Source: Candidatus Desulfatibia profunda (GTDB lineage Bacteria > Desulfobacterota > Desulfobacteria > Desulfobacterales > UBA11574). From it: a DNA stretch of 64,000 nt. Of the stretch, positions 5,626-62,687 are shown one piece after another; position 1 is the stretch's first letter, and each line of letters opens with the position of its first letter. Both the position numbers and the translations under genes were made by a program. The DNA lies in contig JACNJH010000129.1 of NCBI GenBank assembly GCA_014382665.1, positions 305 to 64,304 of the forward strand, read 5' to 3'. Under the pieces are notes generated by a model. That model was not told the origin of the DNA, did no database searches, and saw only the letters and a program-made list of their open reading frames with translations.

Positions 5626-6396
5626 TTATGGCATATGTATTAAATCTTTTATTTGCTTCTCCTTTTCCATGATATCCCTCCTATCAGGGACTCCATGTTC
5701 TTTTCTTTTAACAGATGGTTTATACATTATAAAGAGGTAGTTAAAACCGCGCAAAAAGTAATTGTGCTCGACAGAAGCTTTATGCCAGTCGGTTCGATAC
5801 ATGCTCACGTTATGCCGCGTAACTGCAATAATATCAATTGGCGTAAAGAGTTCATTAAGGATCGAAAACAGTCTGAAACCTATGGGTATAAAGGGCTTGT
5901 TCTTTTTATAGGAATCGGAAACATAAAGGGCCATGTATCTATCATGGTGCAGTATGCGGTAAATCTCTTTAATTACCGAATGCATTGCTTGATAGTACGC
6001 TTTGCTTTGAGCGTTTAGTTCACCGATGCATTCCTTTAAACCCGAGTACTTTATGTGATCTGAGTACGGCGGATCTATAAATACGAAATCCGCTTTTTCA
6101 TCCTCGAGCGGGAGCTTTCTGGCGTCTGCACGAAAGATATCTTTGCGGACAGGGTTGATATCGTAACCAAGAGCCCTGCGCTTTAAATCGCGGGCAACGT
6201 CGATTGTAGTTCCGCTGCCGCACATGGGGTCCACAATCAGGTCTTTGGGTTTCGTATAACGTGATAAAAGATTCCAGATGATATAGGCAGGGGTAGCGCC
6301 TTCATAAGGCTTTTTCGGTTCCATGGATCTTTTATAATGCCCAGATGGGTAATCCCATAATGTTGTTGTCTGAAGACGTAAAGGTGGTTTTGGCAT
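5626..6396 (-). CDS. DNA methyltransferase (N6-A/N4-C type), apparently orphan
   Basis: SAM motif I, VDPMCGSGTT, comes before catalytic motif IV, FIDPPYSD. N-terminal WDYPS box is present. No adjacent restriction endonuclease ORF was seen. Confidence 0.8.
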   Translation of the reverse strand: MPKPPLRLQTTTLWDYPSGHYKRSMEPKKPYEGATPAYIIWNLLSRYTKPKDLIVDPMCGSGTTIDVARDLKRRALGYDINPVRKDIFRADARKLPLEDEKADFVFIDPPYSDHIKYSGLKECIGELNAQSKAYYQAMHSVIKEIYRILHHDRYMALYVSDSYKKNKPFIPIGFRLFSILNELFTPIDIIAVTRHNVSMYRTDWHKASVEHNYFLRGFNYLFIMYKPSVKRKEHGVPDRRDIMEKEKQIKDLIHMP

Positions 6397-6432
6397 AGTT
6401 GTTAACCTTCTGGATTTGAAATAAAAGTTGAG

Positions 6433-6540
6433 TTGATAAGAGTACCAGAATTCGCTTTTTGAAGCGGGTGTATCGGAAATTTCTGATTGTGTTAAGCACT
6501 AAGGCAAACCGCAACATATGGAAGCCTGTCTGTTGCAGTG
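6433..6540 (+). repeat. 108-nt conserved element, copy A (inverted partner at 59882-59989)
   Basis: TTGATAAGAGTACCAGAATTC...CAACATATGGAAGCCT...GTTGCAGTG aligns with the reverse complement of 59882-59989, including long identical blocks. It ends 37 nt upstream of the methyltransferase start. Confidence 0.85.
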
Positions 6541-6747
6541 GCCATTTAAATTCAAATACCAAAGGCAGCCCGAGATGTCAAATGCCTCATTCCAAGAAAC
6601 AAAATTACGGCTATTTGGGGTACAGTTCAAGCTTTAATCTTGACACATCGACGTCTGCAGACAAGCTCAGACCGCTCGCCCAAAAGAACCTGGATGACCT
6701 TAGCAGCGATTATCTTTCGATGAACGATTCGTTTTGCTCTTCTTTGG

Positions 6748-7080
6748 ATGTGGTTAAATTTCTCTGGGCAGGATGAATTCGATCGAGCCTTCAATTTGAT
6801 GGAAAAGGGTGATTGGAAAGGAGCCATCAAGGGATTTGAACGCGCTATACACTGGCACCCGGCTTTGCCTCAGCCATACAGTAATATGGGTCTCTGCTAT
6901 GCTAAGCTGGGGAAAAGACAGGCTGCTCTCGCGGCTTTTAAAAAAGCGCTTGAAATCGACCCGAAATATGAACCGGCCATCATCAACAAAGATGCAACGG
7001 AGCAGCTAAACGATGGCCAATGCCTGTCGGGCGATGTGAAAACCACACGCTATTATGGACAAAACCAAAGACGTCGTTAA
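6748..7080 (+). CDS. small TPR-repeat protein, possibly a remnant of a longer frameshifted gene
   Basis: AIKGFERAIHWHPALPQPYSNMGLCYAKLGKRQAALAAFKKALEIDPKYEPA reads as two TPR units. The upstream region has a protein-like reading in another frame. Confidence 0.45.
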   Translation: MWLNFSGQDEFDRAFNLMEKGDWKGAIKGFERAIHWHPALPQPYSNMGLCYAKLGKRQAALAAFKKALEIDPKYEPAIINKDATEQLNDGQCLSGDVKTTRYYGQNQRRR

Positions 7081-59812: not shown

Positions 59813-59881
59813 CGCCCCTTTGATTCAGCCGCGTAAAATAGTTATTTGCTTATTTACGGATGTCCCGGATATTCCGATTGT

Positions 59882-59989
59882 CACCGCAACCGGTAGGCTT
59901 CCATATGTTGTGGTTTATCGAATTCCATACCCAATCAGATTTTTTAGATACAACCTTACCCAAAAAGGGAATTCTGGTACTCTTATCAA
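59882..59989 (-). repeat. 108-nt conserved element, copy B (inverted relative to 6433-6540)
   Basis: The reverse complement aligns with 6433-6540. Identical blocks are TTGATAAGAGTACCAGAATTC, TGTATC, TCTGATTG and CAACATATGGAAGCCT. It ends ~150 nt upstream of the helicase start. Confidence 0.85.
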
Positions 59990-60140: not shown

Positions 60141-62687
60141 ATGAGGAATGATGCATTTTCATCAATTCAGAAAAATCCCATGAGCGACACTGTTGACAAC
60201 CCGCAGTTGCAGCTAGCTTTTGATTTTGTGCAGCACACTGGTAAAAACCTGTTTCTCACCGGCAAGGCCGGCACCGGTAAAACCACTTTTCTGCGCACTT
60301 TGAAAGAACGGTCACCCAAGCGCATGATCGTGGTGGCGCCTACTGGGGTGGCCGCCATCAATGCCGGCGGGGTCACCATCCATTCGTTCTTCCAGATGCC
60401 GTTCGGCCCCCTGGTGCCCGACGTTAATCCCCTTGACGGCAGTGGTGATGCCGGCCGGCCCCGAAGCCAGTTCCGCTTCAGCAAAGAAAAAATCAACATC
60501 ATCCGCAGCCTGGACCTGCTGGTCATCGATGAGATCAGTATGGTCCGCGCCGACCTGCTCGACGGCATCGACGCCGTTCTGCGGCGCTTGCGTGCCAGCA
60601 GCATTCCTTTCGGCGGCGTGCAGCTGCTGCTGATCGGCGATCTGCTGCAACTGGTGCCGGTGGTCAAAGTCGACGAATGGGAAATCCTGCGTCGCCATTA
60701 CGACACCATATTTTTCTTCAGCAGTCGAGCCCTGGCCGCGGCCCGATTCGTGAGCATCGAGCTGAAGCATATTTACCGGCAAAGCGATACGCGCTTCATT
60801 GATTTGCTGGGCAAGGTCCGCGACAACCGCATGGATGCCCAGACCCTGTTCGCGCTGAACAAGCGCTACGATCCGGTCTTTGCCAAAGAATCCCCCGAAG
60901 GCTATATCACCCTCGCCACCCATAATTACCAGGCCCAACAGATCAACGAGGCCCGGCTGGCCGCATTGCCCGGCCGGGAGAGAAGATTTGAAGCGGTGGT
61001 TGAAGGGGATTTTCCACCCTATGCCTTTCCGACCCCCTCCGAACTGGTGCTCAAGTCCGGAGCCCAGGTGATGTTTATCAAAAATGACAGTTCTCCAGAA
61101 AAACGGTACTACAACGGCAAAATCGGCCGTCTGAAACGGATCGCCGGGGATGAGCTGACAGTTGAATGTCCGGACAGCGCCGATCCCATTACCGTTGCCA
61201 AAGCCGAGTGGCGCAATGTCAAATATACACTCAACGAGGAGACCAAAGAGATTGAAGAAACCGAATCCGGCAAATTCATTCAGTTTCCTTTGAAACTGGC
61301 CTGGGCCATCACCATTCACAAGAGCCAGGGCCTGACCTTTGACAAGGCGATTATCGATGCCCGGGCCGCCTTTGCCGACGGCCAGGTCTATGTGGCCTTA
61401 AGCCGCTGCCGAACCCTCGACAGCCTGGTGCTCAGCACCCCCATCGAAAGCAGCAGCATTAAAAGCAACGATGTGGTGCAAGCCTTTACCGGTGCCATTG
61501 AGCAAAACCCGCCTAGTCAAGCCCAGCTCAGGGACGGCAAGCGGGAATACCAACTGGCGCTCCTGGATGAGCTGTTCGATTTTACGATCCTGTGGCGCCG
61601 CCTGCTCACTTGCATCAAAATCTCTAATGAATACAAAAGCATTCTGACCAGCCCCGCCCCTTCTTTCTTCGGCCGCATCGTGGAACCCGTAAAAGCGCAG
61701 TTAACCGAGGTCGCGGACAAATTCGCCATCCAGCGACGGAACATCGTCAAGGATGTGGCAGATCCCGAAGCCAGCCCGCATCTTCAGGAACGGGTGGCCA
61801 AGGCCGCCGCCTATTTTGCCGACAAGATCGAATCGCTGGTGGGCGAGCCCCTGCGTGGCCTCGCGGTTGAAACTGATAACCGGGACGCACGCAAGACGTT
61901 GACCAAAGCCATCAACGCTGTCCGTGAAGAAACGGCCGCAAAGTTTTACTGTCTCAACGAATGCCGCGCGGGCATCGTGTTTGCCGATTATCTCAAGGCA
62001 CGTGCCCGATCCTTGTTCCAGGAAGGGCCGACCAAAGCCGGGCGCATGCAAGCCGAAAACCAGCCTTCTGAAGCCATCGATCATCCTGCACTTTACCGCA
62101 TGCTCAAGCAGTGGCGGGCTGATCAAGCTGAAAAAACTGGCCGGCCGGCATTCTGGGTGCTGCACAACACAACCCTAGCCGCCATCGCTGCCAAGCTGCC
62201 GGCAACCCGTCAGGAACTGGGCGCCATCAAAGGGTTGAAAGGAAAAAAAGGCAAAATTTTCGGCGATGAAATTCTAAAGATAGTGGCCCGATATCGGTCG
62301 GAAAACAACCTGCCCCCGCCGGAACCGGAGCCCGCTGGATCGGAAGACGAACCGGTCGATAAAAGAAAGGAAAAATCGAAAACCAAAGATGAATCGCTGC
62401 GCCTGTTTCTGGAACGCAGGAGCGTGTCGGAGGTTGCCGAAGCCCGGGGACTGGCCCTATCCACCATCGAAGGCCATCTGGCGCATTTTGTAGGCACCGG
62501 CCAGCTGGGCATCCATCGCCTGGTGGAACCGGCCAAGGCCGCCCGCATCGCCGCCTATTTCCAAAGCAGCCGGAACCCGCTGCTGGCCCCGGCCAAAGCG
62601 GCCCTGGGCGATGACGTATCCTACAGCGAGATGCGGTTCGTGCTGAAGGAGCTTGAACGTAATGGGGAAATAAAGCCATCACATTAG
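60141..62687 (+). CDS. Pif1/RecD-family helicase with C-terminal HRDC and HTH domains
   Basis: Walker A LTGKAGTGKTTFL, then VVAPTGVAAINAGGVTIHSFF, DEISMV, and later an HRDC-like region (ALYRMLKQWRADQAEKTGRPAFWVLHNTTL). The start could be ATG 60141 or ATG 60180. Confidence 0.8.
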   Translation: MRNDAFSSIQKNPMSDTVDNPQLQLAFDFVQHTGKNLFLTGKAGTGKTTFLRTLKERSPKRMIVVAPTGVAAINAGGVTIHSFFQMPFGPLVPDVNPLDGSGDAGRPRSQFRFSKEKINIIRSLDLLVIDEISMVRADLLDGIDAVLRRLRASSIPFGGVQLLLIGDLLQLVPVVKVDEWEILRRHYDTIFFFSSRALAAARFVSIELKHIYRQSDTRFIDLLGKVRDNRMDAQTLFALNKRYDPVFAKESPEGYITLATHNYQAQQINEARLAALPGRERRFEAVVEGDFPPYAFPTPSELVLKSGAQVMFIKNDSSPEKRYYNGKIGRLKRIAGDELTVECPDSADPITVAKAEWRNVKYTLNEETKEIEETESGKFIQFPLKLAWAITIHKSQGLTFDKAIIDARAAFADGQVYVALSRCRTLDSLVLSTPIESSSIKSNDVVQAFTGAIEQNPPSQAQLRDGKREYQLALLDELFDFTILWRRLLTCIKISNEYKSILTSPAPSFFGRIVEPVKAQLTEVADKFAIQRRNIVKDVADPEASPHLQERVAKAAAYFADKIESLVGEPLRGLAVETDNRDARKTLTKAINAVREETAAKFYCLNECRAGIVFADYLKARARSLFQEGPTKAGRMQAENQPSEAIDHPALYRMLKQWRADQAEKTGRPAFWVLHNTTLAAIAAKLPATRQELGAIKGLKGKKGKIFGDEILKIVARYRSENNLPPPEPEPAGSEDEPVDKRKEKSKTKDESLRLFLERRSVSEVAEARGLALSTIEGHLAHFVGTGQLGIHRLVEPAKAARIAAYFQSSRNPLLAPAKAALGDDVSYSEMRFVLKELERNGEIKPSH

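What the first reader, a model, noticed from the sequence alone, without database searches (positions are those of the whole stretch)
6433..6540. A 108-nt element upstream of the orphan methyltransferase recurs, inverted, upstream of the Pif1-like helicase 53 kb away
Seen in sequence: 6433-6540 and the reverse complement of 59882-59989 align over their full length. Long identical blocks are TTGATAAGAGTACCAGAATTC, TCTGATTG and CAACATATGGAAGCCT. Weaker similarity continues for ~40 nt beyond. Relative to the adjacent gene the orientation is the same in both cases: the CTTATCAA end points toward a start codon 37 nt away (methyltransferase) or ~150 nt away (helicase). Both copies can form a distal helix (A: CCGCAACA/TGTTGCAG; B: CCACAAC/GTTGCGG). 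Both can also form a small hairpin, in which a G:C pair in copy A (CGCTT/AAGCG) is a C:G pair in copy B (CCTT/AAGG). Inference: this may be a shared cis-regulatory leader or small structured RNA controlling two DNA-transaction genes. Alternatively it is the end of a mobile element carrying such cargo.
Basis: partly seen in the sequence, partly recalled or inferred. Interest (0 to 1): 0.6.

Follow-up and report, generated by a model that had tools for sequence, protein, structure and literature searches.

The report
Relic ends of IS91-family transposon
The two 108-nt look-alike stretches are the decayed outer ends of old insertions of an IS91-type "jumping gene" that is scattered in many copies through this genome and its relatives, so they are ordinary mobile-DNA debris and not a shared regulatory RNA for the neighbouring methyltransferase and helicase genes.

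Summary
The repeat is real: 77 % identity over 108 nt, blastn E 5e-16. It is not a two-copy element. This genome has at least 7 clear copies and several weaker ones, and 19 of 41 related genomes carry several copies each.

All copies share a sharp edge, TTGATAAGA (TCTTATCAA on the other strand), and are truncated at different points on the inner side.

In longer copies the opposite strand holds broken reading frames of an IS91-family (Y2/HUH, rolling-circle) transposase. Its stop codon lies about 230-290 nt from that edge.

Intact relatives (447-449 aa; Zn_Tnp_IS91 + Y2_Tnp domains) pass NCBIfam's "IS91 family transposase" model. They end with the same small hairpin followed by TTCTTATCAA. One of them sits at five or more different sites that diverge exactly after TCTTATCAA.

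- Its small hairpin is the subterminal palindrome typical of this family and has modest covariation support.
- The "distal helix" has no covariation support.
- No Rfam family matches, RNAalifold finds no consensus fold, and no promoter is predicted.
- Neighbouring genes across copies are unrelated in function.

The methyltransferase and helicase lie outside the terminus and are not cargo. This is ordinary and of low interest.

The parts
6433..6730 (-). Copy A: relic of the oriIS-side non-coding end of an IS91-family insertion sequence (the IS/transposase sense is the - strand). The terminus is at 6433. The inner boundary is approximate and includes traces of the last transposase codons and stop. 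No transposase gene is left.
   Evidence: blastn/nhmmer family membership; alignment with copies that carry transposase remnants; alignment with the ends of intact elements; no tnp remnant in the window by tblastn.
6433..6441 (-). Terminal nonamer TTGATAAGA (TCTTATCAA in IS sense), the physical end of the element.
   Evidence: An intact relative sits at 5 or more different sites that are identical up to ...TTCTTATCAA and diverge directly after it. The same terminus is seen in L074, L079, L091 and C165.
6450..6469 (.).
   Evidence: Predicted in nearly all copies with different stem sequences. 82 % of cells paired, 2 pairs with compensatory changes, covariation score 0.289 against 0.227 in shuffles, reached by 23 of 500 shuffles.
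6508..6539 (.). Second imperfect inverted repeat of copy A (ACCGCAAC ...
   Evidence: 84 % of cells paired across 19 copies, but 0 compensatory changes and no excess over shuffles. The block is conserved as CATA..ATATTG.GG in intact elements.
59868..59989 (+). Copy B: a shorter relic of the same IS end (IS sense is the + strand). The terminus is at 59989. It is truncated about 120 nt in, where an unrelated short repeat family begins.
   Evidence: matches to other copies stop at +107 to +123; second repeat family.
59981..59989 (+). Terminal nonamer TCTTATCAA of copy B.
59952..59972 (.). Subterminal hairpin region of copy B (ATTCCC TTTTT GGGTAAGGTT). The register is ambiguous: CCC/GGG or CCTT/AAGG.
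5626..6396 (-). Flanking gene, outside the IS terminus and not part of the element: 256-aa N6/N4 DNA methyltransferase.
   Evidence: ORF; Pfam PF01555 E 3.5e-24.
60141..62687 (+). Flanking gene, outside the IS terminus and not part of the element: 848-aa PIF1-like helicase with HRDC and HTH_40 domains.
   Evidence: ORF; Pfam PF05970 E 2.5e-26, PF00570, PF14493.

Best explanation
Both stretches are 'solo' remnants of the oriIS-side end of an IS91-family (HUH/Y2, rolling-circle) insertion sequence. This is the non-coding 230-290 nt that follows the transposase gene.

In the active element, the terminal ...(hairpin)-TTCTTATCAA with its subterminal imperfect palindromes is the site where the transposase starts strand transfer. 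This step is inferred from the family's known mechanism.

Old copies inserted next to the methyltransferase gene and next to the helicase gene. They then lost the transposase gene by deletion, and in copy B partly through a neighbouring unrelated repeat. They have drifted to about 77 % identity.

The resemblance between the two loci is therefore common descent from a mobile element, not a shared regulatory function. The copies are most likely inert.
For: Shown:
1. The family is multi-copy: 7 clear and about 5 weaker copies in this genome, and several copies per genome in 19 of 41 relatives across 10 genera.
2. All copies share one sharp edge and are ragged on the inner side, ending between +113 and about +700.
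3. Pfam Y2_Tnp matches at E 1e-9. In this genome, C165 has a 290-aa remnant whose stop lies about 245 nt from the terminus, and C81 has a remnant directly behind copy C.
4. Intact relatives at 77-85 % identity are 447-449 aa with Zn_Tnp_IS91 + Y2_Tnp. They pass NCBIfam NF033538 'IS91 family transposase' with 165 and 173 bits against a cut-off of 125.
5. Those intact elements end 229-286 nt after the stop with hairpin + TTCTTATCAA. One (P0007) sits at 5 or more different right flanks that diverge exactly after TCTTATCAA. It has a different, non-inverted left end 250 nt upstream of the ATG, giving about 1.83 kb in all.
6. A direct alignment of A and B with the intact ends shows shared blocks: CATA..ATATTG.GG, ACACAA.C.TAAATTTT and AAAG(G/C)GA(A/G)TTCTTATCAA. 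nhmmer with the relic profile hits the intact ends at E 1e-6 to 3e-4.
7. The literature describes, for IS91-family elements, an oriIS downstream of tnpA with one or two imperfect subterminal palindromes, no inverted repeats, no target duplication, and a last 82 bp that is sufficient for transposition (PMC13181058). ISCR1 has a 232-bp oriIS region (PMC6218425).
Against: - No copy of exactly this subgroup with an intact transposase was found. All 43 transposase matches in 52 family genomes are fragments. This could be true extinction, or assembly loss of repeats in fragmented genomes.
- Outside the last 60-80 nt, similarity between the relics and the intact elements' ends is modest.
- The gene beyond the terminus is co-oriented with the lost transposase in 19 of 26 copies (p about 0.03). 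Pure debris does not predict this.
Confidence: 0.93

Rival explanations
1. One reading: the element is a structured small RNA or 5' leader that co-regulates the methyltransferase and the helicase.
For: Both window copies lie upstream of, and in the same orientation towards, a start codon. The small hairpin shows compensatory changes.
Against: No Rfam match at E<=1. The RNAalifold consensus energy is -0.9 kcal/mol on either strand. The distal helix has no covariation. Genes next to the other copies are unrelated, and in 7 of 26 copies they face the other way. The conserved sequence continues into a transposase pseudogene. No promoter-like site is predicted.
Confidence: 0.02
2. The relics are IS ends that have been co-opted. 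The oriIS region carries an outward promoter or operator that now drives the adjacent co-oriented gene, as the POUT promoters in the ISCR1 oriIS region do.
For: The gene beyond the terminus starts next to the element and runs away from it in 19 of 26 copies (two-sided binomial p 0.029). Inner-side genes show no such bias, 9 against 14. ISCR1 is a precedent in the same superfamily (PMC6218425).
Against: No sigma-70-like -35/-10 pair is found in either window copy. The gene calls are crude and the copies are not all independent. The bias could also come from target or strand preference of insertion, or from which insertions are tolerated. The relics drift at roughly 70-80 % identity, with pair-breaking substitutions.
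Confidence: 0.06
3. The copies are non-autonomous mini-elements (MITE-like: oriIS plus a terIS, without a transposase) that can still be mobilised in trans.
For: Many copies lack the transposase. Mini-IS91 constructs with only the two ends transpose when TnpA is supplied in trans (PMC13181058). The genome holds one intact Y2 transposase on contig C102.
Against: The inner boundaries differ from copy to copy and no second shared end was found. Copies are only about 70-80 % identical to each other (the closest pair, C and E, 91 %) and not near-identical. The C102 transposase is only 24 % identical over about 100 aa to this lineage and has no TCTTATCAA end.
Confidence: 0.03

Closest known systems
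IS91 family insertion sequences (IS91, IS801, IS1294/IS1294b): HUH/Y2 rolling-circle transposons
   Same: - The transposase has Zn_Tnp_IS91 + Y2_Tnp domains and passes NCBIfam NF033538.
- The element is a single gene of about 1.83 kb.
- The two ends differ and are not inverted repeats.
- A long non-coding oriIS-side end follows the stop codon and carries subterminal imperfect palindromes (PMC13181058).
- A pyrimidine-T-rich short sequence abuts the terminus, compared with CTTG/GTTC in characterised members.
   Different: - The terminus is ...TTCTTATCAA. From memory, canonical members and ISCRs end in ...TTCCTATAC(C)-like sequences. A Trichlorobacter lovleyi relative ends ...TTCCTATCC.
- The flank consensus is loose (YTCA-like) and not a strict tetranucleotide.
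- The hosts are Desulfobacterota from metagenomes.
- The window copies are dead fragments without a transposase.
ISCR1 oriIS region with outward POUT promoters (PMC6218425)
   Same: A non-coding oriIS region of about 230 bp lies downstream of the transposase, directly upstream of co-oriented unrelated genes.
   Different: No promoter is predicted or shown here, and there is no association with resistance genes or integrons. The NCBIfam ISCR clade Ia model scores far below its cut-off, 153 against 925 bits.
MITEs and other IS-derived short repeats
   Same: A short, multi-copy, intergenic, non-coding repeat derived from a transposable element.
   Different: It has no terminal inverted repeats, no uniform length and no second conserved end. 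The copies are one-sided truncation products of a full IS.

Membership tests
IS91 family insertion sequence (relic end) | Associated transposase of the IS91/Y2 HUH type (Zn_Tnp_IS91 + Y2_Tnp; NCBIfam NF033538) | tested here: met
   Remnants lie directly behind copies C, C165 and L025. Intact relatives at 77-85 % identity pass NF033538 with 165 and 173 bits against a cut-off of 125, and have both Pfam domains. Window copies A and B themselves retain no transposase, so their membership rests on homology of the end.
IS91 family insertion sequence (relic end) | The element end lies downstream of the transposase stop (oriIS side) and has a defined physical terminus | tested here: met
   The stop-to-terminus distance is 229-286 nt in four intact elements. 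Five or more independent right flanks diverge exactly after TCTTATCAA.
IS91 family insertion sequence (relic end) | Two functionally distinct ends, no terminal inverted repeats | tested here: met
   The left end is CAGGTCATGTTCTTTG... and the right end is ...GGGAATTCTTATCAA in the P0007 element. They are not reverse complements of each other (by inspection).
IS91 family insertion sequence (relic end) | Imperfect subterminal palindrome(s) at oriIS | tested here: met
   A hairpin directly inside the terminus is present in nearly all copies, with modest covariation. A second inverted repeat lies about 75-105 nt in; it is paired in 84 % of cells but shows no covariation.
IS91 family insertion sequence (relic end) | Specific tetranucleotide target abutting oriIS (CTTG/GTTC/GTCC in characterised members) | tested here: inconclusive
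   Of 33 termini, 15 flanks start with YT, 8 of them with CTCA or TTCA. The active P0007 element has CTTA, CTTG, CTAT and CGAT. This is a tendency and not a fixed tetranucleotide.
IS91 family insertion sequence (relic end) | No target-site duplication | tested here: inconclusive
   No direct repeat is seen between the left and right flanks of the P0007 copies. However, metagenome contigs mix left and right flanks, and the relics lack the left end.
IS91 family insertion sequence (relic end) | Rolling-circle transposition through a single-stranded circular intermediate | not testable with these tools
   This needs in vivo or in vitro transposition assays.
Structured non-coding RNA / riboswitch-like leader | Match to a described RNA family, or a conserved secondary structure with covariation | tested here: not met
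   No Rfam 15 match at E<=1 on 7 loci. RNAalifold gives -0.9 and -0.7 kcal/mol on the two strands. The distal helix has 0 compensatory changes. Only the 6-bp terminal hairpin covaries.
Structured non-coding RNA / riboswitch-like leader | Constant position and orientation relative to a functionally coherent set of downstream genes | tested here: not met
   Orientation splits 19 to 7, and the neighbours are functionally unrelated.
MITE | Terminal inverted repeats, target-site duplication, uniform short length | tested here: not met
   Only one conserved end, ragged inner ends and no inverted repeats.

The most novel reading that the evidence does not exclude
Solo oriIS ends of this IS91 lineage may have been kept because they act as portable outward promoters or operators for the gene just beyond the terminus, including defence-type genes such as the methyltransferase, the Pif1-like helicase and a PLD-SNF2 helicase. 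That would explain the 19:7 orientation bias. A second open point: the (YTCAA)n pentamer arrays that often abut the terminal ...ATCAA could be written by the transposase itself, through reiterated nicking or termination at oriIS, instead of being a preferred target.
Probability: 0.08. Interest if true: 0.35.

Novelty: new member of a known kind. Interest (0 to 1): 0.1.

Why it matters
It matters mainly as a clean negative. A tempting 'shared regulatory RNA upstream of two DNA-transaction genes' turns out to be transposon debris. The methyltransferase and the helicase should therefore not be treated as a co-regulated pair.

As a by-product, the work defines the oriIS-side terminus of an apparently uncharacterised IS91-family lineage common in Desulfobacterota: ...hairpin-TTCTTATCAA, about 230-290 nt after the stop, in an element of about 1.83 kb. 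This helps to mask such repeats in annotation and in searches for non-coding RNAs, and to recognise IS scars in defence-gene neighbourhoods.

Tried and rejected
- Rfam search at E<=1 over 7 loci gave only a chance miRNA hit elsewhere in L003.
- RNAalifold on 20 copies, both strands, core and long versions, found no consensus structure.
- Protein coding of the core was tested. Six-frame translations of 20 copies show no consistently open frame. The 'GFHML' frame shared by A and B is interrupted by stops in most other copies, and the core has 1-nt and 8-nt indels.
- A sigma-54 promoter reading of TGGAAGCC..GGTTGC was rejected by inspection, because the GG-GC spacing is 3 nt too long.
- Sigma-70 scans of both window copies found 0 sites.
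- The intact Y2 transposase on C102 was considered as a trans-acting partner and rejected. It is only 24 % identical over about 100 aa and has no matching end.
- A search for an intact transposase of this lineage in 52 genomes of the family found fragments only.
- DNA of copy A against plasmid records gave no match.
- An earlier-notes look-up by sequence returned nothing.
- The idea that the orientation bias reflects general co-orientation of the whole neighbourhood was tested and not supported (inner side 9 against 14).

Full report
**Observation**

blastn gives 77.5 % identity over 111 columns, with E 5e-16 against the whole 3.85-Mb genome.

The stated gene context is correct:
- A 256-aa N6_N4 DNA methyltransferase (5626-6396, -) starts 36 nt from 6433.
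- An 848-aa PIF1/HRDC/HTH_40 helicase (60141-62687, +) starts 151 nt from 59989.

**Not two copies but a family**

A search of the window's own genome found seven clear copies on six contigs. I call them A and B (the window copies) and C to G. A profile search added about five weaker or partial copies.

Aligned together, the copies share a sharp edge at TTGATAAGA. Upstream of it there is no similarity. Downstream, similarity lasts for very different lengths:
- about 113 nt in B;
- about 200 nt in D and G;
- about 300 nt in A;
- about 340-390 nt in E and F;
- about 700 nt in C.

In 41 related genomes, 19 carry the element, usually in several copies. These span 10 genera of the same family plus one genome of another family of the order.

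**Not a structured RNA and not coding**

- Rfam 15 gave no match at E<=1 on seven loci.
- RNAalifold on 20 full copies from at least eight genera found essentially no consensus structure on either strand, at -0.9 and -0.7 kcal/mol.
- Six-frame translation shows no frame that stays open across copies, and the core has 1-nt and 8-nt indels.
It has zero compensatory changes and does not exceed the shuffles.
- The small hairpin directly inside the edge is different. It is predicted in nearly every copy with varying stems: CGC/GCG, CCC/GGG, TTCC/GGAA. In a fixed-register count, 82 % of cells pair, two pairs show double changes in three sequences, and the covariation score is 0.289 against 0.227, reached by 23 of 500 shuffles. 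The arms were registered by hand, so I rate this as modest support.

**What it is**

These read '...RVRYYGHYSNVSRGKRKK...', '...IQKIYEVDPLTCPKCQGSMRVIAFIED..KILKHLGLWEV...' and '...DYPVEAYF*'.

- Pfam assigns one fragment to Y2_Tnp (PF04986, E 1e-9).
- A whole-genome scan with that family finds a 290-aa open remnant on contig C165. Its stop lies about 245 nt from a TTGATAAGA edge.
- A second remnant lies directly behind copy C on C81.
- The second conserved block at +220 to +350 in copies A, C, E and F is simply the last codons and stop of this gene.

The 290-aa remnant has thousands of relatives in the large protein collection. The closest full-length ones are 447-449 aa, 77-85 % identical, with Zn_Tnp_IS91 + Y2_Tnp domains. 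Two of them pass NCBIfam's curated equivalog NF033538 'IS91 family transposase', with 165 and 173 bits against a cut-off of 125.

**The terminus**

I fetched DNA around four intact genes. All four elements end 229-286 nt after the stop codon with a small hairpin followed by (A/G)(A/T)TCTTATCAA.

The element encoding P0007 was recovered with at least five different right-hand flanks. The sequences are identical up to ...GGGAATTCTTATCAA and unrelated from the next base on. On the other side, two different left flanks meet the element at CAGGTCATGTTC..., 250 nt upstream of the ATG.

The intact element is therefore about 1.83 kb, its two ends are not inverted repeats, and TCTTATCAA is its physical right-hand terminus.

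A direct alignment of window copies A and B with these ends shows shared blocks: CATA..ATATTG.GG, ACACAA.C.TAAATTTT and AAAG(G/C)GA(A/G)TTCTTATCAA. The relic profile also hits the intact ends at E 1e-6 to 3e-4. Copies A, B and C, and a relative (L027), carry an extra 8 nt (GGTACTCT) just inside the terminus.

**Mechanism**

This part is inferred from the family's known biology. According to PMC13181058, IS91-family elements:
- have two functionally distinct ends, oriIS downstream of tnpA and terIS upstream;
- carry one or two imperfect subterminal palindromes at oriIS;
- make no target duplication;
- need a specific tetranucleotide (CTTG, GTTC, GTCC) next to oriIS;
- need only the last 82 bp of that end for transposition;
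- use the bottom-strand single-stranded circle as the functional intermediate.

One detail is compatible with this. Pair 3 of the hairpin is T·G in 10 of 15 distinct sequences on the strand antisense to the transposase. The hairpin therefore forms better on the bottom strand.

Outside the terminus, 15 of 33 flanks begin with YT, 8 of them with CTCA or TTCA. The active P0007 element has CTTA, CTTG, CTAT and CGAT. This is a tendency that resembles the family's target rule without matching it strictly.

Window copies A and B keep no transposase sequence (tblastn). B is cut short where an unrelated short repeat begins. The only intact Y2 transposase in this genome (contig C102, a 438-codon open frame) is 24 % identical over about 100 aa and has no such end. 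The relics are most likely inert.

**Neighbours**

The set is heterogeneous:
- in the window: the methyltransferase and the Pif1-like helicase;
- elsewhere: MazF toxin, Band_7, PLD-SNF2 helicase, a TPR protein, PIN toxin, CheW, fatty-acid hydroxylase, PLD, a response regulator, an enolase-like enzyme, DUF2179, sensor proteins and others.

Nothing links the element to DNA-transaction genes.

That gene is co-oriented with the lost transposase, with its start next to the terminus, in 19 of 26 copies (p about 0.03). Genes on the inner side show no bias, at 9 against 14. The gene calls are crude and some copies are not independent. No sigma-70-like promoter is predicted in either window copy.

ISCR1, a relative, does carry outward promoters in its 232-bp oriIS region (PMC6218425). 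A co-opted-promoter effect therefore cannot be excluded, but I give it only about 6 %.

**Limits**

- No intact copy of exactly this subgroup was found. All 43 transposase matches in 52 family genomes are fragments. This may reflect extinction, or the usual loss of repeats in fragmented assemblies.
- The DNA of copy A has no match in plasmid records. The transposase has a 57 %-identical, 14-place relative on a finished Trichlorobacter lovleyi plasmid, whose copy ends ...AAAAAGCAAATTCCTATCC.

**Verdict**

The regulatory or structured-RNA interpretation is not supported.

This is a new, apparently unnamed member lineage of a well-known kind (the IS91 family), seen here as dead ends. It is ordinary and of low interest.

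Noticed in passing
window 59834-59878 (abutting copy B); also G000 contigs C116:4407, C119:22996, C277:42828, C65:4173 and 923, C188:15480, C86:1005-1114: A second, unrelated short repeat family (...CGGGACGTCCATAAATAAGTAAATAACT...) occurs at 8 or more places in the genome. On C86 it forms three tandem 35-nt units. It marks the point where IS relic B is truncated. It could be the end of another mobile element.
   Followed up: partly
L091:2050 onward, L079:2822 onward, L084, L057, L071; window 6420-6432 (CTCAAC on the - strand): Pentanucleotide arrays (CTCAA)n or (TTCAA)n directly abut the terminal ...ATCAA in about 10 of 33 termini, and run to 13 or more units next to an intact element. They are either a preferred target or something produced at the oriIS junction. 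I found no description of this.
   Followed up: partly
The two are separated by IS relic A and a 110-aa TPR ORF (6748-7080, +). Whether the methyltransferase belongs functionally to that module was not examined.
   Followed up: no
L020 (G017:C73), locus positions 1303-1371 and 1501-1647: One copy in a related genome is split at profile position 73 by an insertion of about 130 nt. The nature of the insert was not examined.
   Followed up: no
window 6442-6449 and 59973-59980; also copies C (C81) and L027: An 8-nt insertion or duplication (GGTACTCT in IS sense) just inside the terminus marks a sub-lineage that includes both window copies. This is why A and B look especially alike over the first 21 nt.
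   Followed up: yes
G000 contig C102:2005-4657: An apparently intact but distant IS91-family transposase (a 438-codon open frame) is followed by a 305-aa ORF. The N-terminus of that ORF looks, from memory only, like a TIR-like or nucleotide-binding defence domain. It was not annotated here.
   Followed up: no
L092 (Trichlorobacter lovleyi plasmid pIAE1, NZ_CP058410.1:240089-243712): A 57 %-identical IS91-family transposase is present at 14 places on this finished plasmid. In the region fetched, another 'transposase' CDS and qacEdelta1 follow it. Its end reads ...AAAAAGCAAATTCCTATCC.
   Followed up: partly
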